Part shown: positions 13,610-57,242 of the stretch, piece by piece
How positions within the stretch are numbered: position 1 is the first letter of the stretch
How the letters are laid out: every line of letters begins with the position of its first letter
Assembly: GCA_040902845.1 (NCBI GenBank)
Contig: JBBDWM010000042.1
Location: forward strand, 73,825-137,824
Reading direction: 5' to 3'
DNA length: 64,000 bases
Source of the DNA: Acidimicrobiia bacterium
Lineage (GTDB): Bacteria > Actinomycetota > Acidimicrobiia > Spongiisociales > ZC4RG35
Made by a program: the position numbers and the translations under genes
The notes under the pieces: generated by a model
The model's database searches: none
Told to the model about the DNA's origin: nothing
Seen by the model: the letters and a program-made list of their open reading frames with translations, nothing else

Positions 13610-13683
13610 GCGGGTGTAGTTCAATGGTAGAACACGAGCTTCCCAAGCTCGGGGCGAGGGTTCGATTCCCTTCACCCGCTCCA
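13610..13683 (+). tRNA. tRNA-Gly (anticodon CCC)
   Basis: Cloverleaf folded by hand: acceptor GCGGGTG/CACCCGC, anticodon loop TTCCCAA, TTCGATT T-loop, CCA encoded. Confidence 0.9.
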
Positions 13684-16218: not shown

Positions 16219-16272
16219 CCGTAATTGGGACGCACAGGTGCCATATACGGACCTGTGGCTCCCAATTAGGGG
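16219..16272. repeat. palindromic MITE/REP-like element, copy 4 (inverted orientation)
   Basis: CCGTAATTGGGA-CGCACAGGTGCCATATACGGACCTGTGGC-TCCCAATTAGGGG. Its reverse complement closely matches the 29591 copy. Confidence 0.8.
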
Positions 16273-26451: not shown

Positions 26452-27114
26452 ATGGAAAGGCTCACCTTGGGGCGGATGCAGAACCCGATTCGGGGGTTCC
26501 TCCACGGAACCGCGGCGATGGCCGCCATCGTCGGGCTTTTCGTCCTTCTCGGTCGGGCCTGGGGCAACCTGGCGGCTGCCATCGGGTCGCTGGTGTTCGG
26601 TCTAGCCATGCTCGCCATGTTCACGGTCTCTTCGCTCTATCACTCGATCCCCTGGAGTAGCGAGTGGAAGACCCGTCTCCAAAGGGTCGACCATTCGATG
26701 ATCTTCCTCCTGGTGGCCGGGACTTTCACCCCGATCGCCATCGCCACAGTCGACGGGGCCGTCTTGGTCCTGGCACTCACTCTGGTATGGGCGGCTGCCC
26801 TGACCGGGATTCTGCTCAAGGTGTTTCTCCCCAATGTGAAGACGTCGCTTTCGGTCACCCTGCAATTGCTGATGGGATGGTCGGCCCTGATCCTGATGCC
26901 GTGGGTGTTCAGCAGGCTTGGGGTAGGAGCGGTGGTGCTGATCGCGCTTGGAGGGCTTTGTTACACGATCGGGGCGGTGATCTTCATGAAGAAGCGCCCG
27001 AAGCTGTTCCCGAAAACCTTCTCCTATCACGAGCTGTTCCACGTCCTCGTGATCGGCGGAACCACATTCCACTTCCTGGCAGTCCTCTGGTACGCCATCC
27101 CGGCCACCGTCTAA
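26452..27114 (+). CDS. hemolysin III family channel protein (PAQR)
   Basis: Seven TM helices with conserved His positions. Start uncertain between 26398 and 26452. Confidence 0.75.
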   Translation: MERLTLGRMQNPIRGFLHGTAAMAAIVGLFVLLGRAWGNLAAAIGSLVFGLAMLAMFTVSSLYHSIPWSSEWKTRLQRVDHSMIFLLVAGTFTPIAIATVDGAVLVLALTLVWAAALTGILLKVFLPNVKTSLSVTLQLLMGWSALILMPWVFSRLGVGAVVLIALGGLCYTIGAVIFMKKRPKLFPKTFSYHELFHVLVIGGTTFHFLAVLWYAIPATV

Positions 27115-28562
27115 CCGACCCGGACCGTCGACTCCTCGGCGCATAGGCCTTCGACTTCTTCCCACCCGGTGGGCACCGCCAAGGTCAGGTTGTCATGTCC
27201 CTGGTCGGTTATGACCACGTCGTCCTCGATCCGGATTCCGATCCCGAGTAAGGCTTCGGGCACCTTGTGGGTGATCTTCTCCGCGGCCTCTCGGGCCTTG
27301 TTCTCCTCGATCATCGCCGCGGTCCGACCCTCAAGGATCCTGCGCTGTGCCCATTCGTCGAGGTCGTACTCGAGGAGGCTGAGCTCGATCTCGACCTTGT
27401 CTGGCGCCACATAAAGCCCCGGCTCCACGGTGAATGCCATCCCCGGCTCCAGTTTGCGCGACACCCCGTCGATGCGATAGGCGCCCGAGTCGTGCACGTC
27501 GAGGCCAAGCCAATGACCGGTTCCGTGGAAATAGAACTGGTTGTAGTGATGCATCGCCAGGCTGTCGTCCAGGGATTTCGGGAGAAGGCCGAGCTCGACC
27601 ATCCCCTCGGTGAGGATTCGGGTGGCGGCGTCGTGAATCGCGCGCATGCTCGATCCCGGGGTCGACATCTCCAGACCGGTTCGTTGGGCCGCGAGCACCA
27701 CCTCATAAACGGCCCGTTGTGGCCCGGTGAACCTGCCGTTGGCGGGAAAGGTGCGGGTGATATCCGATGAGTAACCGTCGAATTCGGCGGCGGCGTCGAT
27801 GAGAATCAGGTCACCGTCCTCGATTAGCCGGTCGTTCTCGACGTAGTGGAGCACACAGGCATTAGGGCCTGAGGCCACGATCGACGGGTACCCGTTGTGC
27901 CTCGCCCCTGCACCGCGCCAGGAATACTCCATGACGGCCTGCACCTGGTATTCGTAGACACCGGGTCTGGCAAACCGCATCGCCTCCATGTGACCCCATG
28001 CCGAGAGCTCGCAAGCACGACGCAGGCTGGCTACCTCGTCATCGGTCTTGAACAGCCTCATCTCCCCCAGCGTCACCGAGAGGTCCCTCACCTGCGAGGG
28101 CACGGCGCCGCCATATCGAACACGTTGGTTGCGCGCCTTCTGGATGAGGGTGGTGATCCGGGCGTCGTGATGCTCGTTGCCGGTCTCGTACCACAAGACC
28201 TCCCGACCCATCATGAGTCGAGCCAGCACCTCGTCCAGTTCCCCCAACTCGAAAGCGGCATCGGCGCCGAATCGGTCCCTGGCGCCCTCCACCCCGGCCC
28301 GGTAGCCATTCCAGGCTTCCATCTCGGGATCACGGGGTCGGACGAAGAGGGTGTAGTCGCCCTCAGAGTGGCCGGGCGTGATCACCGCCAGCGCCTCGGG
28401 CTCGGGGAAGCCGGTCAGATAGAGAAAGTCGGGGTCCTGGTGGAAGTCGAAGCTGGTGTCGTAGCTGCGGATCACCTCTTTGGAGGCCGGGACCACCGCG
28501 ATTCCGTCGCTCCCGATGAGCTCGGCCAGCCGACTCCGGCGTGCTGCAAAACGATCAGACAT
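27111..28562 (-). CDS. pepP: Xaa-Pro aminopeptidase (M24B)
   Basis: N-terminal creatinase-like domain plus an M24 pita-bread domain (HGTGHWLGLDVHD). Confidence 0.85.
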   Translation of the reverse strand: MSDRFAARRSRLAELIGSDGIAVVPASKEVIRSYDTSFDFHQDPDFLYLTGFPEPEALAVITPGHSEGDYTLFVRPRDPEMEAWNGYRAGVEGARDRFGADAAFELGELDEVLARLMMGREVLWYETGNEHHDARITTLIQKARNQRVRYGGAVPSQVRDLSVTLGEMRLFKTDDEVASLRRACELSAWGHMEAMRFARPGVYEYQVQAVMEYSWRGAGARHNGYPSIVASGPNACVLHYVENDRLIEDGDLILIDAAAEFDGYSSDITRTFPANGRFTGPQRAVYEVVLAAQRTGLEMSTPGSSMRAIHDAATRILTEGMVELGLLPKSLDDSLAMHHYNQFYFHGTGHWLGLDVHDSGAYRIDGVSRKLEPGMAFTVEPGLYVAPDKVEIELSLLEYDLDEWAQRRILEGRTAAMIEENKAREAAEKITHKVPEALLGIGIRIEDDVVITDQGHDNLTLAVPTGWEEVEGLCAEESTVRVG

Positions 28563-28585: not shown

Positions 28586-28638
28586 CCGTAATTGAGACCC
28601 ACAGGGCCGTATATGACCCCTGTAGATCCCAATTTGGG
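28586..28638. repeat. palindromic MITE/REP-like element, copy 1
   Basis: CCGTAATTGAGACC-CACAGGGCCGTATATGACCCCTGTAG-ATCCCAATTTGGG, 24 nt upstream of the pepP start. Confidence 0.8.
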
Positions 28639-28680
28639 AAGGGGTTGCCCCCCGGCCAGGCTCCCAGTAAGAAACCAGGA

Positions 28681-29619
28681 ATGGGAGAAGGGAACGAAGC
28701 TGCGCTGGCACAGCGAGCGGCCGAGCGTCACGGGGTGTTTCACCGCGACGAATGGCTCTCGCTCAGCCTGAGCGAGACAACCTTGAAGCGCCGAACCAAC
28801 GCGGGTCTCTTCATACGAGTCAGGCCTGAGGTATATGCGTTCAGTAGCGCGCCGAGAACCTGGTACCTGGAGGTCGCGGCGGCGGTGCTCGCCTCCGGCT
28901 CCAAAGCGGCTGCCTCGCATCGGACGGCGGCTCATCTCCATGGCCTGGTTGACCGGCCTGAACGCATCGAGGTGGTCAGCCTCCGGACAGGTCGGCGGCC
29001 GTCGGAATACGTACTGCACCAATCGACCGACCTGGCTCGAGCCCACATAACGACGGTGGAAGGAATACCAACGACGACCCTCGCCCGCACCATCGTCGAC
29101 ATCGGCGTCCCCCACGGAATCGGGGCCACCGGTTCCTGCCTTGATGAAGCTCGCCGTCGTGAGTTGGTGACTCTCGAGGACGTGGCCCGGGTGCTCCACC
29201 AGGTGGCGAGGAAAGGCCGCAACGGGGTCGGCCCGGCCAGGCGGATCCTGTCGGAACGTCTCGCATGGGACCAGATCACCGACTCCCAACTCGAGGATCG
29301 GTTCTTGAGGCTGATCCAGCGATCCGACATGCCCCAACCGGAGTCCCAGTTCGTCGTCTGCGACAGCGCTGGGGCCTTTGTTGCCCGGGTCGACTTTGCC
29401 TATCCCCATTCTTCGCTGATCATCGAGCTCGACGGAGCTGCCTTTCACAGCGACCCAGACACATTCCGGCGGGACCGACTCCGTCAGAATCGGTTGGTCG
29501 GCCTCGGGTACACGGTGCTGCGTTTCACGTATTGGGACATCCTCGCCGGAGCGGACTTCGTGGTGGACACGGTGGCATCGTTTCTCCCCCGGAATTGGGA
29601 GCCACAGGGCCGTATATGA
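28681..29619 (+). CDS. AbiEi-like N-terminal domain + DUF559 (restriction-endonuclease-like fold) protein
   Basis: Family pattern typical of actinobacterial DUF559 proteins. ATG at 28681. The last 8 codons and the stop are encoded inside repeat copy 2. Confidence 0.65.
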   Translation: MGEGNEAALAQRAAERHGVFHRDEWLSLSLSETTLKRRTNAGLFIRVRPEVYAFSSAPRTWYLEVAAAVLASGSKAAASHRTAAHLHGLVDRPERIEVVSLRTGRRPSEYVLHQSTDLARAHITTVEGIPTTTLARTIVDIGVPHGIGATGSCLDEARRRELVTLEDVARVLHQVARKGRNGVGPARRILSERLAWDQITDSQLEDRFLRLIQRSDMPQPESQFVVCDSAGAFVARVDFAYPHSSLIIELDGAAFHSDPDTFRRDRLRQNRLVGLGYTVLRFTYWDILAGADFVVDTVASFLPRNWEPQGRI

Positions 29620-29643
29620 CCCCTGAGCGTCCCAATTACGGGC
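29591..29643. repeat. palindromic MITE/REP-like element, copy 2
   Basis: GGAATTGGGAGC-CACAGGGCCGTATATGACCCCTGAGCG-TCCCAATTACGGG. Abuts the stop of the downstream EEP gene. Confidence 0.8.
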
Positions 29644-29645
29644 AG

Positions 29646-30578
29646 CTATGACGCCACGTACTCCAGGTCCACCACGAGTGCAAAGTGGTCTGAACCGATG
29701 CTGGGGCCGAGGTTTCGGTCCCGGACCCGGAGTGCGTCACTGTGGAGAAGGTGATCGATGGGCACTCGGAGCAAGCCAAACGCGGTGGCGGAGAAGGTTG
29801 GTTGCAGCCCGAAGCCGATCTGAGAGTTTCGCAATCCGCCCTTGGAGACCAGGTTGCGGAAAGGCCACGACCAGGGGGTTGCGTTGAGGTCGCCCACCAC
29901 GAAGTAGGCGCCTTCCTGCTCGGCGGCCCATTTCGCGGCAAAGGCCAGTTGGGCGTCCCGGAGCGAAGCTCGTTCCTCCGTGGTGGGAGCCAGGGTGTGA
30001 GTCGAAAGCACCTCCACCGAAACGGGCCAGCCATCGGGCTGGTAGTCCAGCGCCACCGCACGCGGCTGTGCCTCGGCAAACCCGTGTGACACGGCCTCCA
30101 CCTCGTCACGGGCCAGAACCAGGCTGCCGAAGATCAGGTTGTCGGACCGTGCCCTGATGATCTCGTAGTCGAGTTCGGCTGCCTCCAGCGCAACCTCCCA
30201 GGGCCGGCTCGCCTCGTGCAAGAAGACCAGGTCGGCTTGCACCGTCTCGATGTATTCGATGACCTCGTTGTAGCTCTCGTTGGTGGAGAGGAGGTTGAAA
30301 CTGAGCACCCGAAGGTAGGGGGCAGCAGGATCGGACTCCCCGGGCGAGCCGAAGTAGAGCGGCGCTACGAAGAACAGGTTGATCAGGGCAACCGCAAGTA
30401 TCGCCATGCCGGTCCGCCTCCACCGCGACAACACCACGATCCCACCGAGGACCATGAGCACGACGACATATTGCGCCCGAAAGTTGGCGAGGACATCGAG
30501 CCACCAAACCCAACGCCCGGCGAACGAGGCCAGACTCGCCGCGACAATCGCCGCCGCCGGGATGATGACGAGGATCAC
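29646..30578 (-). CDS. endonuclease/exonuclease/phosphatase family membrane protein
   Basis: N-terminal TM helices and an EEP-fold pattern (SFNLLSTN ... GDLNATPWS ... SDH). Confidence 0.7.
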   Translation of the reverse strand: MILVIIPAAAIVAASLASFAGRWVWWLDVLANFRAQYVVVLMVLGGIVVLSRWRRTGMAILAVALINLFFVAPLYFGSPGESDPAAPYLRVLSFNLLSTNESYNEVIEYIETVQADLVFLHEASRPWEVALEAAELDYEIIRARSDNLIFGSLVLARDEVEAVSHGFAEAQPRAVALDYQPDGWPVSVEVLSTHTLAPTTEERASLRDAQLAFAAKWAAEQEGAYFVVGDLNATPWSWPFRNLVSKGGLRNSQIGFGLQPTFSATAFGLLRVPIDHLLHSDALRVRDRNLGPSIGSDHFALVVDLEYVAS

Positions 30579-41735: not shown

Positions 41736-41818
41736 CGAGCGAAGCTCGGCTACAGGAACGCCATACGCATAATGCATAACGCCGCGTTTGGCGTATTGCG
41801 TTTTGCGTATTGCGTATC
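41711..41818. repeat. nested inverted repeats (ACAGGAACTC/GAGTTCCTGT; CTGTAGCGAGC-GAA-GCTCGGCTACAG), imperfect palindrome, and a GTATTGC heptamer array
   Basis: Direct reading. Spans the trxA stop and the cwlM upstream region. Confidence 0.8.
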
Positions 41819-47184: not shown

Positions 47185-47509
47185 CGCGGCTCCCCTCGAG
47201 GGCGCGCTCCAACCATCCCACGAGACTGGGATGGGACACGTCTGCTACCTGGCTGGCGCCGATGATCACGTAGTCAATTCCTGGTTTGAGCGGCAACGTC
47301 CGCACGATATGGCGCAGACGGCGTTTGATCCGGTTCCGGGTCACCGCGTTCCCGGCACTCTTCGAGACGACAAGCCCGACACGAGGCGGTCCCGTCTGAC
47401 CGGGACATTGAACCATGACCACGCCACCGGAGCGACGTCTGGTTCCCTCTTTGAAGACCCTCCGAAAATCGCGTGGGGAGCGAAGGGGCTCGATGTCAGG
47501 CAGCGAGAC
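47177..47509 (-). CDS. rnpA: ribonuclease P protein component
   Basis: RnpA RNR motif (RNRIKRRLR). The real start lies downstream of the rpmH stop. Confidence 0.8.
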
Positions 47510-47630
47510 GCTTCCGGCCCTTGAGGCGACGTGCCTTGAGGGTGGCACGACCAGCTCGAGTTTGCATGCGATGACGGAAGCCGTGTCGGCGCTTCCGACG
47601 TCGAACCTTTGGTTGGTAAGTCCTTTTCAT
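47496..47630 (-). CDS. rpmH: 50S ribosomal protein L34
   Basis: [44 protein letters not shown] translated by hand. Below the ORF-track cutoff. Confidence 0.9.
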
Positions 47631-47639
47631 GGCCAGCAA

Positions 47640-48097
47640 TCCGGTGGAGGAACCACAGGTTACGAACTGTGCCGAAGTTATGTCAAAGCGTCACGATCGC
47701 GAGAAAGGGCACCCGCACCATCACGGAGATCACCTGGTCCGCGAAGAATTCGGATGGTTCGCGAAAAGAACCCATGCGTCATTCATCGTCCCACGGCCTC
47801 GAAATAGGCATGGCAATCTATGGAAAAACCTTTTACTACCTGGGGTTTTCTTGTGGAAAGATGCAGGGCAAGTCTTCCACACCGTTGATTCTCGCGTTCT
47901 TGACGACCCAGTGACACGGAGCCGATACTCGCCTCCCTTGACCTTGGGAGCGCGATCGACTTCCCCTGTCGTAATTGGATGACTGGACCGCTCTCGGTGA
48001 CAACCTGGATGACATCCCGGTGGGATGTTCACAGTCCTTTCCACAGATGTGGATGTGTCTGTGGACAACTCGAGACCGGACTTGGAGGAGTGGCCCA
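47640..48097. promoter_or_regulatory. oriC region with a DnaA-box cluster (rpmH-dnaA intergenic)
   Basis: Multiple TCCACA-core boxes, including a perfect TTGTCCACA (revcomp at 48060-48068), ATCCACA and TTCCACA variants. Low coding potential and the canonical position. Confidence 0.7.
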
Positions 48098-49480
48098 TTG
48101 ACACAACCAAATACGACGCCCGACGGATGGAACCAGTTTCAAGACATTCTCAGGGCGGGAGCCTCCAAGGGAAACTGGGAGACCTGGCTTTCGCGCATTG
48201 AGCCTGACTTCCAGGGACGAACTCCGGTCCTGACCGCCCCCAGCGAATTCCACCTGAGGTGGGTCCGAGACAAACACGGCGATCTGATCGAGGACGCTTT
48301 CAAGGAGATCTACGGGATTGATTCGACACCCCGATACAAGGTGGTCGAAGTCGACCTCGCCGATCAACTCCCTCTCGACCGCGAGCCCCAGGGTGAGCAG
48401 GGCGAGCTAGGCCAGGATCGGACGGGCAAGGGAACACCACCGAACCTCTTTTCGCGTTATCGCTTCGAGAGCTTCGTCGTCGGTCAATCGAACCGATTCG
48501 CATGGGCAGCCGCCATGGCCGTCGCCGAGCAACCCGGGGCTCATTACAACCCTCTCTTCATCTACGGCGGCGCCGGTCTGGGCAAGACCCATCTGTTGAA
48601 TGCGGTTGGCCACCAGGCTCTCGAGATGTACCCGAACCTGGTGGTTCGTTACATATCGTCGGAGAACTTCCTCAATGACTTCATCGACTCGATCCGGAGA
48701 AAGCGTCCCGACGCCTTCAAACACCGGTACCGCGGGGTCGACATCCTGCTTCTTGACGACGTCCAGTTCTTTGAGGGCAAGGAGCAGATCCTCGAGGAGT
48801 TCTTCCACACCTTCAACTCGCTCTACGAGTCGGGCAAGCAGATGGTCATCAGCTCGGATCGCCATCCCCGCAACCTGTCCTCGCTGGAAGACCGACTTCG
48901 GAGCCGTTTTGAGTGGGGTCTCCTCACCGACATCCAACCACCGGATGTGGAAACGAGACTGGCCATCCTGAAGCGCAACGCCGAATTCGCTCCGCGCCCG
49001 GTGCCCATTGACGTCCTCGAGCACATAGCCGGACTGGTCTCTGACAACATCCGGGAGCTAGAAGGAGCCCTGACCAGGGTCACCGCCTGGTCGGCTCTGA
49101 ATCGTCGTGACATAGACTTGGAGACTGCCGAGCGTGTCCTACGCGACATCGTCACCCCATATGAGCCGATCCCCTTGGGACCCGACACCATCATCCGAAC
49201 CACGGCAACCGCTTATGGGTTCTCGGTCGAAGACGTTCTCAGCCCGAGCAGGAGACAACCTCTGGTCCTCTGCCGTCAGATCTCGATGTACCTCTGCCGT
49301 GAGCTGACCGACCTCTCGTTGCCCAAGATCGGCGAGCACTTCCAGCGGGACCACACCACCGTTCTCCACTCGGTGGAGAAGGTGAAGCGGATCCTGCGCT
49401 CGGATCGGGCGGTCTTCGATCGGGTCACACAACTCACACAGGACCTGAGGAAAGGTGGGGTTGTATCCACAGCCAGTTGA
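48098..49480 (+). CDS. dnaA: chromosomal replication initiator DnaA
   Basis: Domains I-IV, AAA+ Walker A GGAGLGKTHL. Start proposed at TTG 48098 with GGAGGAG SD. The 47975 extension is not DnaA-like. Confidence 0.95.
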   Translation: MTQPNTTPDGWNQFQDILRAGASKGNWETWLSRIEPDFQGRTPVLTAPSEFHLRWVRDKHGDLIEDAFKEIYGIDSTPRYKVVEVDLADQLPLDREPQGEQGELGQDRTGKGTPPNLFSRYRFESFVVGQSNRFAWAAAMAVAEQPGAHYNPLFIYGGAGLGKTHLLNAVGHQALEMYPNLVVRYISSENFLNDFIDSIRRKRPDAFKHRYRGVDILLLDDVQFFEGKEQILEEFFHTFNSLYESGKQMVISSDRHPRNLSSLEDRLRSRFEWGLLTDIQPPDVETRLAILKRNAEFAPRPVPIDVLEHIAGLVSDNIRELEGALTRVTAWSALNRRDIDLETAERVLRDIVTPYEPIPLGPDTIIRTTATAYGFSVEDVLSPSRRQPLVLCRQISMYLCRELTDLSLPKIGEHFQRDHTTVLHSVEKVKRILRSDRAVFDRVTQLTQDLRKGGVVSTAS

Positions 49481-49569
49481 GTTGTCCCCCGCGCACCGGG
49501 AGATCTCCCCACTCGATCAACAGCCCCGTGCACAGGACAATCGCCAATGGCCACCACGCCATTCACGAG

Positions 49570-49590
49570 GAATCCACAAATCCACAACCC
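49570..49590. promoter_or_regulatory. tandem ATCCACAA DnaA-box-like pair (dnaA-dnaN intergenic)
   Basis: AATCCACAAATCCACAA read directly from the sequence. Confidence 0.4.
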
Positions 49591-49652
49591 CCTACTACAA
49601 CTAATACTCTTTAAATGCCACTCAGTAGCAAGAAACGAAGGGACACCCACCT

Positions 49653-50735
49653 GTGAGAATCCGAGCTCAGCGAGACGACCTGGCTGATGTACTCGCCAGG
49701 GCAAACCGCGCCGTGGGGACTCGGACCGCCCTGCCGGTGCTGCAGGGTCTCCTCTGTGAGGTGTCGGGGACCAGTCTCCGGGTGACCGGGACCGATCTCG
49801 ATATCACGGTGCGGACCTCCGCTGAAGTGGAAGTGATGGAGGAAGGGCGGGCGGTCATCCCCGGGAGGCTGCTCTCCGAGGCGGTGCGGAAGATGCCGGC
49901 CGGTTCGGTCACAGTGGGCACCACCGACAACGACATCGAGATTCAGGGCAACGGACCACGTTTCACGCTGCGACCGCTCTCGCTGGACGATTTCCCACTT
50001 CACGAGGAGATCGTTTCCGACGGGGTCGAAGTCGACGGGGAGGAACTAGCCGAAGCGATCAACCAGGTCACCATCGCCGCTTCCGGGGATGGGGCACGCC
50101 CCATCCTCACCGGGGTGCTCTTCGAGGGGTCGGACAGTGGTTTGCGGATGGTCGCCACCGACTCCTACCGCCTGGCGAGGCGGGACCTGGTCGGGGTAGG
50201 GCTCGAGGGCACGGCTTTGGTGCCGGCGCGCGGGCTGAGAGAGCTGCCGCGGACGATCGGGTCGACCAAGGTGACAGCGCAACTCCTCGATCGGGAGGCG
50301 GTGTTCACCTCCGACAAGGGCCTGCTTCGTCTCCGCCTCATCGATGGGAGTTTCCCGAAGTATCAATCGCTGTTGCCAGACACCTATCCCAATCAGGTAG
50401 TGGTGGAAAAGGAGACCCTGCTCGACGCCTTGGGTCGGGTCAGCCTGGTCGCCGAAGATCACATCCCGGTCCGCCTCAAGCTCATGGAAGGTGGGATCGA
50501 AGTCACCGTCACCCGCCAGGACGTAGGCGCCGAAGCCGAGCATCTCGACGGTGTGTACACCGGTACCGACGAGGAAGTCTCGATCGCCTTCAACCCGAGA
50601 TACCTCCAGGACGGGGTATCGGCGATTCCCGGTGACTCGGTGCGGATACGAGTGATCGATGCGTTCAAGCCGAGCGTGATCGATCAGGGCTCAGACGATG
50701 CCTTTCTCTACCTGCTGATGCCCGTACGGGTGTGA
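49653..50735 (+). CDS. dnaN: DNA polymerase III beta sliding clamp
   Basis: Three-domain beta clamp. GTG start. Confidence 0.95.
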   Translation: MRIRAQRDDLADVLARANRAVGTRTALPVLQGLLCEVSGTSLRVTGTDLDITVRTSAEVEVMEEGRAVIPGRLLSEAVRKMPAGSVTVGTTDNDIEIQGNGPRFTLRPLSLDDFPLHEEIVSDGVEVDGEELAEAINQVTIAASGDGARPILTGVLFEGSDSGLRMVATDSYRLARRDLVGVGLEGTALVPARGLRELPRTIGSTKVTAQLLDREAVFTSDKGLLRLRLIDGSFPKYQSLLPDTYPNQVVVEKETLLDALGRVSLVAEDHIPVRLKLMEGGIEVTVTRQDVGAEAEHLDGVYTGTDEEVSIAFNPRYLQDGVSAIPGDSVRIRVIDAFKPSVIDQGSDDAFLYLLMPVRV

Positions 50736-51830
50736 ATGCAGGTCGACTGGTTATCGCTCTCCGATTTTCGGTCCTATGAGACTCTCGAATGGAGCCCCGA
50801 GCCGGGGGTGAATCTCTTGCTCGGACCGAATGGGTCCGGCAAGACCAATCTCCTCGAGGCCATCGGCTTCTTGGCCACTCTCAGGTCGTTCCGTTCCGTC
50901 GAGGAGGCCTCATTGATCAAGGATGGGGTGGATGCCGCCATCATCCGCGCCGGCATCTCAACCGGCGAACGGTCGCGGTTGGTTGAGATCGAGGTGAACC
51001 GGATCGGGCCCCGTCGGGCCCAGGTCGACAAGACCCGGCTGCGCCGGACGTCGGACCTGTTGGGTGTGGTCAGGGTCATCGCCTTCCTCCCCGAGGACCT
51101 GGATCTGGTGAAGAGGGGGCCGGCCTACCGACGTGACCTGATCGACCAAGTCGCTCTCCAGTTGTGGCCGGCGGCCCATCTCGACCAGGCTGAGTTCGAT
51201 CGTGCGTTACGACAACGAAACGCATTCCTACGAGCAGGGGAGCGCGACGAGGCCACCCTTTCGGTTTGGGATTCACGATTCGCCCAATCCGGGGGACGGG
51301 TGATGGCGAGAAGAGTGGCTGTGTTGGAGACCCTCGCCCCCTGGCTCGAGGAGACCTACATGTCGGTCTCACAAAGGGGTGATCGGGCGTCTCTTGGGTA
51401 TGTGTGCTCCTGGACCACGAAGGAGATCTCCACCAGTTCCTCGGGGGAGTTCGGCGCCGAGATCGCTTCGGCTCTCGAGAGGTCACGAAAGGCGGATTAC
51501 GACCGCCGTCTGACCACCACCGGGCCGCATCGTGATGAGCCGGCGTTCCGGATCGACGGGGTCGAGACGAGGACGCACGGGAGCCAGGGAGAGCAGCGGA
51601 CCATGGCGTTGGCGGTGAAGTTGGCCGCCCACCGTGCGGTTGCGGATGTGATCGGGGAGCAGCCGGTGCTGCTCCTCGACGACGTCTTCTCGGAGCTCGA
51701 CCCGGACCGGGCCAAGGCGTTGGCTGGGGCAATCCCCGAGCAGGCTCAAACCCTCGTCACCTCGGCGCGGCCTGAGGACGTCCCAATCCCCGGAACTGTG
51801 TGGTGGGTTGGGGACGGGGTGCAACGATGA
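50736..51830 (+). CDS. recF: DNA replication and repair protein RecF
   Basis: Walker A GPNGSGKTN and an SMC-like signature. Confidence 0.95.
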   Translation: MQVDWLSLSDFRSYETLEWSPEPGVNLLLGPNGSGKTNLLEAIGFLATLRSFRSVEEASLIKDGVDAAIIRAGISTGERSRLVEIEVNRIGPRRAQVDKTRLRRTSDLLGVVRVIAFLPEDLDLVKRGPAYRRDLIDQVALQLWPAAHLDQAEFDRALRQRNAFLRAGERDEATLSVWDSRFAQSGGRVMARRVAVLETLAPWLEETYMSVSQRGDRASLGYVCSWTTKEISTSSSGEFGAEIASALERSRKADYDRRLTTTGPHRDEPAFRIDGVETRTHGSQGEQRTMALAVKLAAHRAVADVIGEQPVLLLDDVFSELDPDRAKALAGAIPEQAQTLVTSARPEDVPIPGTVWWVGDGVQR

Positions 51831-52132
51831 CCGGTGGTGACTTGTCGTCATTCGAGTCCTCTCTGGGTGAGGTGTTCCGAAAGATGGGTCTTCCCGACCC
51901 GGTGCTCATGTCCCAGCTCCTCGACGAGTGGGACGAGCTTGCCGGCACCCCTTGGGTAGGGAGGTCGCGGCCGGTGGTGATCAGGGGGCGAACATTGGTC
52001 GTGGAGGCGTCTTCACCGTCGATGGTGGCATTTCTGCGATACGGGGCTACCCAGCTGGTGGAGACCCTGAGAGCCCGTTTCGGGGAGGGGGTAGTCGATC
52101 AGGTCGAAGTCACACCACCGTCGCGAAATTGA
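51827..52132 (+). CDS. DUF721 / DciA-like protein
   Basis: About 100 aa in the conserved recF-gyrB position. Start overlaps the recF stop. Confidence 0.65.
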   Translation: MTGGDLSSFESSLGEVFRKMGLPDPVLMSQLLDEWDELAGTPWVGRSRPVVIRGRTLVVEASSPSMVAFLRYGATQLVETLRARFGEGVVDQVEVTPPSRN

Positions 52133-52180
52133 ATGATCGTCGCAACGGATGGATTGGGTTTTGTCAGTAGTTATCGGTAA

Positions 52181-54160
<1,980 letters not shown>

Positions 54161-54164
54161 GCTC

Positions 54165-56603
54165 ATGAGCGAAGACACACTCGATCCAGTTATCCCCAGC
54201 TCCGATATCGAGATCACCGATGAGATGGAGCAGAGCTTCATCGACTATGCGATGTCGGTCATCGTCTCCCGGGCGTTGCCGGATGTCCGCGACGGCCTGA
54301 AGCCGGTGCAACGCCGGATCATCTATTCGATGTTCGAGAACAACATCACCACTGCCTCGGCGCATCGCAAATGCTCCAAAGTGGTCGGAGATGTCATGGG
54401 CAACTACCACCCCCACGGCGATCAGGCGATCTATGACGCGCTGGTCAGGATGGGTCAGGATTTCTCGATGCGGCATCTCCTCATCGACCCCCAGGGCAAC
54501 TTCGGGACCATCGACGACCCACCCGGCGCGGCGCGCTACACCGAATGCCGTCTCACCAAGCTCTCCAACCATCTACTCGACGGGATCCGGGAGGACACGG
54601 TCGATTTCATCGACAACTACTCCGGCGAGATGCAACAGCCCTCGGTTCTTCCGGCCCGATTCCCCAATCTCCTGGTCAACGGCTCTCAGGGGATCGCGGT
54701 GGGTATGGCCACCAACATCCCTCCTCACAACCTCAACGAAGTCATCGACGCCAGTATCCATGTGATCGACAACCCCGACGCCACCTCCGAGGAGTTGATG
54801 CAATTCGTCAAGGGCCCCGACTTCCCGACCGGCGGGTTCCTGGTGGGGGTCGGCGGGATCCATGACGCTCTCACCACCGGCCGGGGCTCGGTGAAGATCC
54901 GTGCCGTGTGTGACGTGCAGGAGATCCGCAAGGGTCGCACCGCGATCATCGCCACCGAGCTCCCCTACCAGGTCTCGATCGAGCGGATCGTCGCCAAGAT
55001 CAAGGAGTTGGTCGATTCGAAACGGATCGACGGGATCGCCGAGGTTCGCAACGAGAGCTCCGATCGGGTTGGCATCCGACTGGTCATCGAGTTGAAGGCC
55101 AACGCCATCCCCCAGGTGGTGCTCAACCAGCTTTACAAGAACACCCCACTCCAGGATTCGTTCGCATACAACATGGTTTCCCTGGTCGACGGAGTCCCGA
55201 GGACGCTCAACGTGGCCGAGATGATCGGCTACTACCTCGACCACCAGATGGAAGTCGTCGAGCGGCGAACCCGGTTCCGTCTCGAAGAGGCGCAGGCCCG
55301 GGCTCACATCCTCGAGGGTCTCATCATCGCCGTCGACAACATCGACGAGGTGATCCAGGTCATCCGGGGCTCTGCGGACACCAGCGAGGCGCGGGCCAAC
55401 CTGATCGAACGATTCGAGCTTTCCGAGATCCAGGCCAATGCCATCCTGGACATGCCGCTGCGGCGTCTGACCGCCCTCGAGGTTGACAAGCTGCGCACCG
55501 AGCTGGCCGAGCTGGCGGAGGTGATCGCCGAGTTGGAGAAAATCCTCGCCGACCCCAAGATCCGTTGGGGAATCATCAAGGACGAGCTGGGAGAGATACG
55601 GTCCACGTTCGGCGAGAACCGACGCAGCCGCATCATCCCTGACGAGGGCGACCTCTCCCTCGAAGACCTGATTGCCGACGACGAGTTGATCGTCACCGTT
55701 TCCCAAACCGGTTACATCAAGTCGGTCCCGGCCTCCACCTATCGGACCCAGGCCCGCGGTGGGCGTGGAATCAAGGCGGCCGAGGTGCAAGGTGATGACG
55801 TGATCCAGCACCTGGTCCACACCACCGCCCACGCCTATCTCCTGTTCTTCACCAACAAAGGCCTGGTCCATCGGCTGAAGGCCCATGCCATTCCCCGCCA
55901 GTCACGGACAGCCAAAGGCGTGCTGGGGCAGTCGGTGCTCCCCTTGGAGCCCGAGGAGACGGTGCAGGCGATCATCGACACCCGTGACTACGAGACCGGC
56001 CGCTATCTGGTGATGGTCACCAAACTTGGGGTCGCGAAGAAGACCGAGTTCAAGGAATACGACTCCCGGAACCAGACCCTGGTTGCGATCAAGCTGGTTG
56101 GCGACGACGAGGTGGTGTCGGTTCGCCCGACCAGCGGAGCCAATGACATGCTGATCTTCACTCGTGACGGGATGGGGATCAGGTTCGCCGAAGCAGACCT
56201 CAGGAGTATGGGGCGGAGCACCCAGGGAGTCCGCGGGATCCGGTTGCGCGAGGGTGACCAGGTCGTGGCCGCCGTTTCCAACGTCGAGGGTGACGAGGTG
56301 TTGCTGTTGAGCTCGGCCGGTTACGGCAAGCGGACTGCCATGGGGGAGTTCCGCCGTCAGACTCGTGGCGGGCAAGGAATGAAGGCCTTCAAGCTGACGC
56401 GGGTACGAGGCAACCTGGTCGGAGCGCTCGCCGTGTCCAAGGAAGGCGACGTCTTCCTGGTCTCATCGGCCGGCATCGGGATCCGGACCCCGATCGCCAA
56501 GATCAGCCGTCAGAAGCGGGACACGACCGGGGTCAGGGTCATCGATGTCGGCGAGGGAAATGAGCTCTCGGCCATCGCCACCGTCCACGATGTCGAGGAA
56601 TGA
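54165..56603 (+). CDS. gyrA: DNA gyrase subunit A
   Basis: Active-site Tyr region, QRDR (HPHGD), C-terminal beta-pinwheel repeats. Confidence 0.97.
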   Translation: MSEDTLDPVIPSSDIEITDEMEQSFIDYAMSVIVSRALPDVRDGLKPVQRRIIYSMFENNITTASAHRKCSKVVGDVMGNYHPHGDQAIYDALVRMGQDFSMRHLLIDPQGNFGTIDDPPGAARYTECRLTKLSNHLLDGIREDTVDFIDNYSGEMQQPSVLPARFPNLLVNGSQGIAVGMATNIPPHNLNEVIDASIHVIDNPDATSEELMQFVKGPDFPTGGFLVGVGGIHDALTTGRGSVKIRAVCDVQEIRKGRTAIIATELPYQVSIERIVAKIKELVDSKRIDGIAEVRNESSDRVGIRLVIELKANAIPQVVLNQLYKNTPLQDSFAYNMVSLVDGVPRTLNVAEMIGYYLDHQMEVVERRTRFRLEEAQARAHILEGLIIAVDNIDEVIQVIRGSADTSEARANLIERFELSEIQANAILDMPLRRLTALEVDKLRTELAELAEVIAELEKILADPKIRWGIIKDELGEIRSTFGENRRSRIIPDEGDLSLEDLIADDELIVTVSQTGYIKSVPASTYRTQARGGRGIKAAEVQGDDVIQHLVHTTAHAYLLFFTNKGLVHRLKAHAIPRQSRTAKGVLGQSVLPLEPEETVQAIIDTRDYETGRYLVMVTKLGVAKKTEFKEYDSRNQTLVAIKLVGDDEVVSVRPTSGANDMLIFTRDGMGIRFAEADLRSMGRSTQGVRGIRLREGDQVVAAVSNVEGDEVLLLSSAGYGKRTAMGEFRRQTRGGQGMKAFKLTRVRGNLVGALAVSKEGDVFLVSSAGIGIRTPIAKISRQKRDTTGVRVIDVGEGNELSAIATVHDVEE

Positions 56604-57186: not shown

Positions 57187-57242
57187 GCCGTAATTGGGAT
57201 ACACAGGGCCGTATATGACCCCTGTAGATCCCAATTAGCGGT
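57187..57242. repeat. palindromic MITE/REP-like element, copy 3
   Basis: CCGTAATTGGGAT-ACACAGGGCCGTATATGACCCCTGTAG-ATCCCAATTAGCGG with perfect 13-bp termini. Overlaps the stop codons of both convergent flanking genes. Confidence 0.85.

What the first reader, a model, noticed from the sequence alone, without database searches (positions are those of the whole stretch)
28586..29643. DUF559/AbiEi-like gene exactly bracketed by two copies of a palindromic MITE/REP-like element
Two copies of a roughly 55-bp element (13-bp termini CCGTAATTGGGA / TCCCAATTACGG around a CAGGGCCGTATATGACCCCTG hairpin core) sit at 28586-28638 and 29591-29643. Together they flank a single gene encoding an AbiEi-like plus DUF559 protein, inserted between the pepP start and the stop of the EEP-family gene. 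The last 8 codons and the stop of the DUF559 gene are supplied by the right-hand repeat. This looks like a small repeat-bounded cassette or a hotspot created by the repeat family. Two further copies exist at 16219 and 57187.
Basis: seen in the sequence. Interest (0 to 1): 0.6.

Follow-up and report, generated by a model that had tools for sequence, protein, structure and literature searches.

The report
Nuclease gene bracketed by its own palindromes
A gene for a DNA-binding nuclease sits between two copies of a 53-bp palindrome that is also scattered through the genome, and relatives of this gene across the Actinomycetota are bracketed in the same way by their own lineage-specific palindromes, which points to a previously undescribed protein-and-repeat partnership resembling the REP/RAYT systems of other bacteria.

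Summary
Two direct copies of a 53-bp palindrome (28586-28638 and 29589-29641) bracket one 312-aa gene (28681-29619). Its product is a full AbiEi-like DNA-binding module fused to a Vsr/DUF559 nuclease. The stop codon lies inside the right copy, and solo copies sit at 16219 and 57188.

It is not a recent cassette. Orthologues down to 53% identity occupy the same pepP-EEP junction, each with two copies, and dN/dS is 0.09-0.14. One relative has only a single palindrome there and no gene.

The palindrome is a dispersed, mostly extragenic family in many Acidimicrobiia genomes. It has lineage-specific variants and no target-site duplication.

The main result is family-wide. In 70 of 84 homologous loci (34-85% identity, different genomic contexts, including a cultured Tsukamurella), the gene is bracketed by its own ~50-bp palindrome, against 1 of 279 controls. 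The upstream copy ends about 44 nt before the start codon. The downstream copy abuts or overlaps the stop.

Most likely the protein recognises these palindromes. The upstream copy would be its operator, and the nuclease would maintain or spread the repeat family. This is REP/RAYT-like, but with a different enzyme class. No description was found in the literature searched.

The parts
28586..28638 (+). Upstream (left) copy of the 53-bp palindromic element. It is non-coding, lies between the pepP start and the DUF559 gene, and is the putative operator.
   Evidence: Orthologous copies are present in L002, L004, L005, L018, L029, L093, L112, L125 and L126.
28645..28673 (+). Putative promoter: -35-like TTGCCC (28645-28650), 17-nt spacer, -10-like TAAGAA (28668-28673), then 7 nt to the ATG (probably a leaderless mRNA). 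It starts 7 nt after the palindrome.
   Evidence: The GGTTGCC-N17-TA motif is conserved in the alignment of 10 orthologous upstream regions. It is not detected by the strict E. coli-type scan. This part is inferred.
28681..29619 (+). Gene for a 312-aa protein: an AbiEi-like two-domain DNA-binding module (about residues 1-180) fused to a Vsr/DUF559 (EDxHD-like, PD-(D/E)XK) nuclease domain (about residues 200-300). The disordered C-terminal tail and the stop codon are encoded by the right palindrome.
   Evidence: Pfam; PADLOC AbiEi over residues 6-178, E 1e-25; AF2 model with pLDDT 90.4; Foldseek hits to 6Y8Q AbiEi and to 3R3P I-Bth0305I / 3HRL. Residues S79, H80, D140, E205, D238 and H256 are invariant in 69 homologues; E249, D251 and D265 are conserved in at least 90%. 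dN/dS is 0.09-0.14.
29589..29641 (+). Downstream (right) copy of the palindromic element, in direct orientation relative to the left copy. Its first 31 nt overlap the last 9 codons and the TGA stop of the gene. It ends 4 nt before the stop of the convergent EEP gene.
16219..16271 (-). Solo copy of the element (core in the opposite orientation), intergenic. It is conserved at the orthologous site in the CAZSMJ MAG (L051).
57188..57240 (+). Solo copy of the element between convergent genes (a DUF3566 gene after gyrA, and a 211-aa gene). The TAA stop of the 211-aa gene (57235-57237, - strand) lies inside the element terminus. The site is occupied in JBBDQO (L085), holds a variant in L205, is degenerate in JBOGET (L203) and is empty in L206.
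27111..28562 (-). Left boundary gene: pepP (Xaa-Pro aminopeptidase), divergent from the DUF559 gene.
29646..30578 (-). Right boundary gene: an EEP-family (Exo_endo_phos) protein, convergent with the DUF559 gene.

Best explanation
The unit palindrome - promoter - gene - palindrome is a conserved, vertically inherited module. In it, a sequence-specific DNA-binding nuclease is encoded between two copies of its own recognition element.

Shown:
- The protein is an AbiEi-type DNA-binding module fused to an apparently catalytically intact Vsr/EDxHD-type nuclease.
- The gene is bracketed by palindromes in most members of a large protein family. Each lineage has its own palindrome sequence.
- In the window's clade the palindrome is a dispersed, mainly extragenic family of constant 53-bp length. 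Its half-sites (AATTGGGA/TCCCAATT) are highly conserved and switch together between lineages.
- The left and right copies evolve in concert.
- The gene can be absent, leaving one palindrome in its place.

Inferred:
- The protein binds the palindrome as a dimer through its winged-helix domains, one per terminal half-site.
- The upstream copy, which ends just before a conserved -35/-10-like motif, acts as an autoregulatory operator, as in canonical AbiEi.
- The nuclease domain nicks or cuts at or near the palindromes, and the resulting repair or gene conversion keeps the dispersed copies homogeneous and occasionally creates or removes copies.

The system therefore behaves like a REP/RAYT pair (a single-copy domesticated enzyme plus its dispersed palindromes), but with a PD-(D/E)XK nuclease instead of a HUH transposase. 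Solo copies may additionally serve the host as U-tract-less hairpin terminators between genes.
For: 1. Synteny. Orthologues at 85, 82, 71 and 53% identity all lie between pepP and EEP, each with two copies and the stop codon in the right copy.
2. Family-wide bracketing. 70/84 loci score >=20 against 1/279 shifted-window controls. The median repeat length is 53 nt. The upstream copy ends a median of 44 nt before the start codon, and the downstream copy starts a median of 6 nt before the stop. The pattern is also seen in the proteasome-operon paralogue L119, the purine-operon paralogue L122 and cultured Tsukamurella.
3. Dispersal. Solo copies of other clades' palindromes occur in flanks (10 in 336 kb against 0 in 736 kb of mismatched controls). 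Elements are depleted from long open frames (26% against 71% of random 53-mers).
4. Concerted, lineage-specific evolution. Within-genome left-versus-right core identity is 0.90, against 0.79 for orthologous copies between genomes. Positions 4 and 50 switch together, T:A in 72 copies and A:T in 15. Genomes differ in their family consensus.
5. Protein. The AbiEi fold plus the fold of the I-Bth0305I homing-endonuclease catalytic domain. I-Bth0305I is a homodimer with a ~60-bp footprint on a pseudopalindromic site (PMC3239194). AbiEi proteins repress their own promoters via inverted repeats (PMC7319586).
6. Selection. dN/dS is 0.09-0.14 with dS 0.8-1.8, yet the palindrome termini stay identical.
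7. Gene-less state. L023 has one palindrome that aligns to both window copies.
8. Hint of decay. The palindromes are degenerate in the two genomes where the gene is absent or frameshifted.
Against: - No binding or cleavage has been shown, so the protein-palindrome recognition is inferred from co-location and co-variation only.
- Solo copies are stable at orthologous sites in relatives with ~85% nucleotide identity. Only one empty solo site was found (L206), so mobility, if any, is slow.
- Hairpin covariation is weak. Central positions 13-17/37-41 pair in only ~45% of copies, so a REP-like single-strand hairpin substrate is not supported.
- Simple recombination between two 53-bp direct repeats 1 kb apart could alone explain the left-right homogenisation.
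- The genome scan was truncated, and whole genomes could not be searched for gene copy number or for another candidate mobiliser such as a RAYT.
- The invariance of the termini among scanned copies is partly imposed by the search pattern.
- 14 of 84 homologous loci show no bracketing repeat.
- The -10-like hexamer lacks the usual final T.
Confidence: 0.55

Rival explanations
1. Selfish free-standing homing-endonuclease cassette. The nuclease cuts unoccupied palindromes. The gene, together with one palindrome, is then copied or integrated into them (homing or Campbell-type integration), which gives two flanking copies. Solo palindromes are empty target sites or excision scars.
For: - The nuclease domain matches the catalytic domain of the homing endonuclease I-Bth0305I. 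That enzyme footprints ~60 bp on a pseudopalindrome (PMC3239194).
- Two direct copies flanking an insert are the expected product of integration at a repeated site.
- L023 shows the occupied/empty alternative at one locus.
- Related genes occur in unrelated housekeeping contexts. One pair is 83% identical at the nucleotide level with unrelated flanks.
- No target-site duplication is found.
Against: - Only one gene copy was seen per genome sample, although many intact putative targets persist.
- Synteny at one site is deep, and dN/dS is about 0.1.
- There are no hits in phages and only one among 72,556 plasmid records.
- The flanking copies are not disrupted, so the gene would not be protected from its own enzyme.
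- The homology arms would be only ~26 bp each.
Confidence: 0.2
2. Self-contained autoregulated toxin-antitoxin-like or defence module. An AbiEi-type repressor/antitoxin is fused to a nuclease effector. The upstream palindrome is only its operator and the downstream one only a terminator or second operator. The dispersed copies are an unrelated REP-like family that the regulator happens to use.
For: - Residues 6-178 match full-length AbiEi models of the AbiE abortive-infection system, and the fold matches 6Y8Q.
- AbiEi proteins bind inverted repeats in their own promoters (PMC7319586).
- The palindrome ends a conserved ~44 nt before the start codon, next to a -35-like motif.
Against: - There is no AbiEii (DUF1814) partner, and the gene is not in a defence island. 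The neighbours are pepP, EEP and argH/argG.
- It does not explain why the downstream copy has the same sequence and abuts the stop codon in most lineages.
- It does not explain why dispersed copies co-vary with the lineage.
- The gene is in conserved core-genome synteny, which is unusual for defence genes.
Confidence: 0.17
3. Coincidence or hotspot. The palindromes are ordinary REP-like hairpin terminators that accumulate in intergenic DNA, and the DUF559 gene merely lies between two of them.
For: - The copies fold into stable hairpins (z = -1.9 to -5.9).
- They lie between genes, often at convergent gene ends, and sometimes supply stop codons.
Against: - Bracketing is seen in 70/84 loci against 1/279 controls, across unrelated contexts and different palindrome sequences.
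- At the observed density of ~0.3 solo copies per 10 kb, double flanking by chance is negligible.
- The distances to the start and stop codons are conserved.
- No U-tract terminator signature is present.
Confidence: 0.04

Closest known systems
REP/REPIN-RAYT systems (REP-associated tyrosine transposases; Nunvar 2010, Bertels & Rainey 2011, PMC3337134, PMC5581495)
   Same: - A gene that is apparently single-copy, vertically inherited and chromosomal, flanked by copies of a short palindromic repeat.
- The same repeat is dispersed through extragenic DNA.
- Each protein lineage is paired with its own repeat sequence type.
- No target-site duplication.
- Rare on plasmids.
   Different: - The enzyme is an AbiEi winged-helix module plus a Vsr/PD-(D/E)XK nuclease, not an IS200-like HUH/Y1 transposase.
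- The repeat is one 53-bp unit with invariant 8-12-bp terminal half-sites and a constant length. It is not a 20-30-bp REP with a GTAG head arranged in doublets.
- Hairpin covariation is weak.
- Copy number appears lower (tens to perhaps ~100 per genome).
- The host group is Actinomycetota.
EDxHD / Vsr-like homing endonucleases (I-Bth0305I, PDB 3R3P; PMC3239194, PMC2677866)
   Same: - The predicted nuclease fold matches (Foldseek TM 0.75, 24% identity).
- The architecture is multidomain.
- The characterised enzyme is a homodimer that footprints ~60 bp on a pseudopalindromic site, similar in size and symmetry to the 53-bp element.
   Different: - The gene is free-standing and chromosomal, not in an intron, an intein or a phage.
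- The DNA-binding part is AbiEi-like.
- The gene is flanked by two intact copies of the presumed site rather than interrupting it.
- It is single-copy and syntenic over long evolutionary distances.
AbiEi antitoxin/repressor of type IV AbiE toxin-antitoxin systems (PDB 6Y8Q; Rv2827c; PMC7319586, PMC3985639)
   Same: - The N-terminal ~180 residues match full-length AbiEi in sequence and in predicted fold.
- Inverted repeats lie just upstream of the gene's own promoter region.
   Different: - There is no AbiEii nucleotidyltransferase partner.
- A nuclease domain is fused instead.
- A second copy of the repeat lies at the 3' end of the gene.
- The repeat is dispersed genome-wide.
MITEs / composite arrangement of two MITEs around a gene
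   Same: - Short, non-coding elements with 12-bp terminal inverted repeats.
- Multiple copies.
- One presence/absence polymorphism.
- Two copies flank a gene.
   Different: - No target-site duplication at any boundary offset.
- The bracketed gene is always the same protein family and co-varies with the repeat.
- No DDE transposase is involved.

Membership tests
REP/REPIN-RAYT system | Short palindromic repeat dispersed in many extragenic copies | tested here: met
The window holds 4 copies in 64 kb. Only 26% of elements lie inside long open frames, against 71% of random 53-mers.
REP/REPIN-RAYT system | Associated gene flanked by copies of the repeat | tested here: met
   Seen in the window and 9 syntenic genomes and in 70/84 family loci against 1/279 controls.
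REP/REPIN-RAYT system | Gene present as a single copy per genome, vertically inherited, rare on plasmids | tested here: inconclusive
   Synteny holds down to 53% identity. One plasmid record out of 72,556 has a hit, and no phage does. One full-length copy was found in the Tsukamurella records held. No whole genome could be searched.
REP/REPIN-RAYT system | Each protein lineage paired with its own repeat type | tested here: met
   Each protein clade has distinct termini: AATTGGGA, GTTCTTGCGT, TTTTGGCG, GTTCTTGTCA, TGCGGTGGAT.
REP/REPIN-RAYT system | Enzyme is an IS200-like HUH/Y1 tyrosine transposase | tested here: not met
   Pfam gives AbiEi_4 + DUF559/MTES_1575. The fold matches AbiEi and a Vsr-like nuclease.
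MITE | Terminal inverted repeats | tested here: met
   CCGTAATTGGGA / TCCCAATTACGG.
MITE | Target-site duplication flanking each copy | tested here: not met
   None of the 113 copies has a direct repeat of 4 bp or more, and at most 3 have one of 3 bp, at any boundary offset from -6 to +4.
MITE | Insertion polymorphism between related genomes | tested here: inconclusive
   One empty orthologous site was found (L206). The other orthologous sites examined are occupied, but that sampling was biased towards occupied sites.
EDxHD/Vsr-like homing endonuclease | Vsr-like nuclease fold with conserved catalytic acidic and His residues | tested here: met
   Foldseek hits to 3R3P (E 1.5e-3, TM 0.75) and 3HRL. 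D238 and H256 are invariant, and E249, D251 and D265 are conserved in at least 90% of 69 homologues.
EDxHD/Vsr-like homing endonuclease | Gene resides in an intron, an intein or a phage and interrupts its own target; occupied and empty alleles coexist | tested here: not met
   The gene is free-standing, there are no phage hits, and both flanking sites are intact. A gene-less allele with one palindrome does exist in L023.
EDxHD/Vsr-like homing endonuclease | Site-specific double-strand cleavage of the target | not testable with these tools
   Needs biochemistry.
AbiE type IV toxin-antitoxin system | AbiEi two-domain antitoxin/repressor | tested here: met
   PADLOC AbiEi models cover residues 6-178, E 1e-25. 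Foldseek hit to 6Y8Q, E 2e-6.
AbiE type IV toxin-antitoxin system | Adjacent AbiEii (DUF1814) nucleotidyltransferase toxin in an operon | tested here: not met
   The neighbours are pepP and an EEP-family gene.
Intrinsic terminator | GC-rich hairpin followed by a U tract | tested here: not met
   The terminator scan finds none at the elements. The flanks are C-rich on the left and G-rich on the right.

The most novel reading that the evidence does not exclude
AbiEi-DUF559 proteins define a second class of 'domesticated enzyme plus dispersed palindrome' system, independent of RAYTs. The family has at least 747 50%-identity clusters with the full architecture and is widespread in Actinomycetota. 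In this reading, a single-copy, autoregulated, winged-helix-guided Vsr-like nuclease recognises a ~40-55-bp palindrome and, by nicking and repair, maintains, homogenises and slowly propagates that palindrome family through the chromosome. The gene's own two flanking copies would be the ancestral ends of the unit.
Probability: 0.35. Interest if true: 0.85.

Novelty: new variant of a known kind. Interest (0 to 1): 0.78.

Why it matters
DUF559 fused to AbiEi is a large, uncharacterised protein family, routinely annotated as an 'endonuclease domain-containing protein' or an 'AbiEi antitoxin'. This work gives it a concrete and testable substrate: the palindrome on either side of each gene.

If confirmed, it would show that the REP/RAYT logic (a single-copy enzyme co-evolving with its own intragenomic repeat population) has arisen independently with a different nuclease fold. 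It would also account for dispersed palindromic repeats in high-GC Gram-positive genomes, where RAYTs are not the known agents.

The proteins would form a natural library of nucleases with long (~50 bp) recognition sites that differ between lineages.

For annotation, these genes should not be called antitoxins. The palindromes also create gene-end artefacts, because they supply stop codons and C-terminal tails.

Tried and rejected
- Rfam (gathering thresholds) finds only a tRNA in the window and nothing at the elements.
- A classical MITE is rejected because there is no target-site duplication.
- A structured RNA or strict hairpin is not supported. Covariation is weak and the central stem is paired in only ~45% of copies.
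- An intrinsic terminator and an E. coli-type promoter are not detected by the consensus scans.
- Recent horizontal acquisition is rejected. GC content matches the surroundings and synteny is deep.
- A phage or plasmid origin is rejected, with 0 phage hits and 1 plasmid hit.
- An empty-site search among the pattern-selected loci was uninformative, because those loci were chosen for having the element.
- I tried to locate the pepP locus of the genome with the empty solo site (L206). It was not among the listed hits. The last look-up went instead to the L205 genome, which showed a frameshifted gene.
- Literature searches for DUF559 with palindromes, or for AbiEi-Vsr fusions, found nothing relevant.
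Full report
**1. Observation**

- A 53-bp element lies at 28586-28638 and again, in direct orientation, at 29589-29641. The two copies are 85% identical.
- The consensus is CCGTAATTGGGA-N3-ACAGG(T/G)-CCGTATATGAC-CCCTGT-N3-TCCCAATTACGG.
- The 21-nt core occurs four times in the window, against 0 expected. The other two copies are at 16219-16271 (core inverted) and 57188-57240.
- All copies fold as hairpins, with z-scores from -1.9 to -5.9.
- Between the two copies lies one gene, 28681-29619. Its product carries Pfam AbiEi_4 and DUF559/MTES_1575.
- The gene's last 9 codons and its TGA stop are inside the right copy.
- pepP starts at 28562 on the opposite strand, and the convergent EEP-family gene stops at 29646.
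- Rfam has no family for the element.

**2. Not a recent insertion**

The identical protein is found in an Acidimicrobiia MAG. Orthologues at 85%, 82%, 71% and 53% identity all lie between pepP and the EEP gene in the same argG-argH neighbourhood.
- Each orthologue is bracketed by two copies of the element, with the stop codon in the right copy.
- Five GTDB representative genomes show the same arrangement.
- Among orthologues dN/dS is 0.09-0.14, with dS 0.8-1.8. The gene is therefore old and under purifying selection.
- GC content matches the surroundings.

One syntenic relative (JBOGET, L023, ~74% nucleotide identity) has no gene at this junction. It has a single element between the EEP gene and pepP, and the EEP stop codon lies inside the element terminus. 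That single element aligns to both window copies. More distant lineages carry the gene at this site. Deletion by recombination between the two direct copies is therefore the simplest reading, although insertion at a pre-existing palindrome is not excluded.

**3. The element is a dispersed family**

- Almost all blocks come from Acidimicrobiia MAGs, with 14-16 or more copies in single fragmentary MAGs. A few chance-like hits fall in other phyla.
- I aligned 113 distinct copies without gaps. Length is constant at 53 bp. The half-sites AATTGGGA/TCCCAATT are essentially invariant, although this is partly imposed by the search pattern. The asymmetric centre CCG-AT-TGAC occurs in both orientations.
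- Hairpin covariation is weak. Overall 76% of cells are paired, but the score is 0.103 against 0.086 for shuffles, and positions 13-17/37-41 pair in only ~45% of copies.
- Positions 4 and 50 switch together: T:A in 72 copies and A:T in 15. This looks like a symmetric protein-binding site more than a selected hairpin.
- Copies avoid long open frames: 26% lie inside one, against 71% of random 53-mers.
- No target-site duplication is present at any boundary offset.
- Lineages differ in family consensus. DATDPT, JBBDQO and CAZSMJ have T4-A50 with core TCCGTATATGACC. JAICNB, JAICRU and JBMDXS have A4-T50 with core GTCGCATATGGCA.
- The two bracket copies within a genome are more alike (0.90 in the variable core) than orthologous copies between genomes (0.79).
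- Solo copies are conserved at orthologous sites in ~85%-identical relatives.
- The site orthologous to 57188 carries a variant in L205 (AATTTGGA/ACCAAATT), is degenerate in JBOGET and is empty in L206.

**4. Family-wide bracketing (the key result)**

Eighty metagenomic loci encoding homologues of 34-85% identity were fetched, in addition to the loci obtained by look-up.
- I aligned the region upstream of the start codon against the region around the stop codon. A repeat scoring 20 or more was found in 70 of 84 testable loci, against 1 of 279 shifted-window controls in the same loci.
- The repeats have a median length of 53 nt and are mostly palindromic. The upstream copy ends a median of 44 nt before the start codon. 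The downstream copy starts a median of 6 nt before the stop, and it overlaps the coding 3' end in 30 of 59 distinct loci.
- The sequences are lineage-specific:
  - GTTCTTGCGT...ACGCAAGAAC
  - GTTTTGGCGG...CCGCCAAAAC
  - GTTCTTGTCAAGA...TTGACAAGAAC
  - and others.
- The genomic contexts differ. A 48%-identity homologue sits in the proteasome/Pup operon, and a 40%-identity homologue in a purine operon.
- Extra solo copies of these other palindromes occur in the flanks: 10 in 336 kb, against 0 in 736 kb of mismatched controls.
- In cultured Tsukamurella tyrosinosolvens (Mycobacteriales; 29.5% identity), the annotated DUF559 gene is bracketed by a 41-nt palindrome. Solo intergenic copies lie on two other records of the same strain, which hold only that one full-length gene.
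- The full-length architecture has 747 representatives at E<=1e-30 in a 50%-clustered library.

**5. The protein**

- PADLOC AbiEi models cover residues 6-178 (E 1e-25).
- An AlphaFold model (pLDDT 90.4) matches S. agalactiae AbiEi (6Y8Q, E 2e-6) over the first ~200 residues.
- Over the last ~100 residues it matches the catalytic domain of the homing endonuclease I-Bth0305I (3R3P, TM 0.75) and the DUF559 structure 3HRL (sequence-level hit to 3HRL).
- S79, H80, D140, E205, D238 and H256 are invariant in 69 homologues; E249, D251 and D265 are conserved in at least 90%.
- The tail encoded by the palindrome is predicted to be disordered.
- I-Bth0305I is a homodimer that footprints ~60 bp on a pseudopalindromic site (PMC3239194).
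- AbiEi proteins repress their own promoters through inverted repeats (PMC7319586).
- There is no AbiEii partner here.
- A conserved GGTTGCC-N17-TA motif lies between the left palindrome and the start codon. Its spacing fits a leaderless transcript. The strict E. coli-type scan does not call it a promoter.

**6. Interpretation**

The co-location, the conserved geometry, the lineage-specific pairing and the domain composition together indicate that the protein recognises the palindrome that flanks its gene.
- The upstream copy is best explained as an autoregulatory operator.
- The genome-wide, lineage-specific and concerted behaviour of the repeat family suggests that the nuclease also acts on the dispersed copies. 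This would resemble RAYTs and REP/REPINs (PMC3337134, PMC5581495).
- Both of these steps are inferences. No binding or cleavage has been shown.
- In the two genomes where the gene is missing (JBOGET) or frameshifted (L210), elements identified by position have degenerate termini. This is the pattern expected if the protein maintains them. However, there are only two such genomes, both are relatively divergent, and the frameshift may be a sequencing error.

Rivals, in order of remaining weight:
- A selfish homing or integrating cassette fits the nuclease fold and the occupied/empty locus. It does not fit the single copy, the deep synteny and the many intact 'targets'.
- A self-contained AbiEi-nuclease regulatory or defence module fits the upstream copy. 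It does not fit the downstream copy or the dispersed copies.
- Chance is excluded by the controls.

**7. Novelty**

Searches of the held literature for DUF559 with palindromes, for AbiEi-Vsr fusions and for actinobacterial REP-like systems found no description of this association.
- The kind of system, a single-copy gene flanked by its cognate dispersed palindrome, is already known from REP/RAYT.
- The enzyme class, the repeat architecture and the host phylum are different.
- I therefore rate it a new variant of a known kind, with high interest.

Noticed in passing
window 47499-56600: The window contains the chromosomal origin region: rpmH (47630-47499, - strand), dnaA (48098-49471), dnaN (49653-50732), recF (50736-51827), gyrB (52250-54157) and gyrA (54165-56600). 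GC content is lowest (0.58-0.60) and the cumulative GC skew reaches its minimum at about 46-50 kb. The solo element at 57188 lies just past gyrA and a DUF3566 gene.
   Followed up: partly
window 57235-57237; L023 5060-5062: Element termini supply stop codons to neighbouring genes. The TAA of the 211-aa gene in the window, and the TAA of the EEP gene in L023, both lie inside the CCGTAATT terminus.
   Followed up: partly
L210 4955-5870 (same contig as L205, ERZ25039469 contig_14096): The DUF559 orthologue at the pepP-EEP junction is split into two reading frames near codon 161, apparently by a 1-nt insertion. Its bracket palindromes and the solo copy on the same contig have degenerate termini. 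This could be a real pseudogene or a long-read sequencing error.
   Followed up: partly
L014, L019, L028, L034, L041, L066, L068, L074, L075, L088, L095, L101 (MFD bins): Several MAG records titled 'uncultured Acidobacteriota bacterium' carry the Acidimicrobiia-type element. One of them (CAVVCY, 1.14-Mb contig) encodes a protein 81% identical to the window's 211-aa gene product. The record titles look taxonomically wrong.
   Followed up: no
L119 4823-4938/5929-6044; L137, L139, L149: In some clades the bracketing repeat is a 110-120-nt double unit (two palindromes in tandem) rather than a single ~50-nt palindrome. Several loci also carry an extra tandem copy next to the gene.
   Followed up: no
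L186 vs L198: Two homologues are 83% identical at the nucleotide level but have unrelated flanks on both sides. Neither shows a bracketing repeat. They may represent a mobile or otherwise different sub-branch of the family.
   Followed up: no
window 41757-41802: A different, AT-richer palindrome (AACGCCATACGCATAATGCATAACGCCGCGTTTGGCGTATTGCGTT) is unrelated to the element studied.
   Followed up: no
window 13610-13683: tRNA-Gly(CCC). It is the only Rfam or ARAGORN hit in the window.
   Followed up: no
flanks of the 113 elements (-5..-1 and +1..+5): The 5 nt left of the element are C-rich (45-65% C) and the 5 nt right of it are G-rich (47-74% G). The palindrome therefore extends weakly beyond the 53-bp core.
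   Followed up: no
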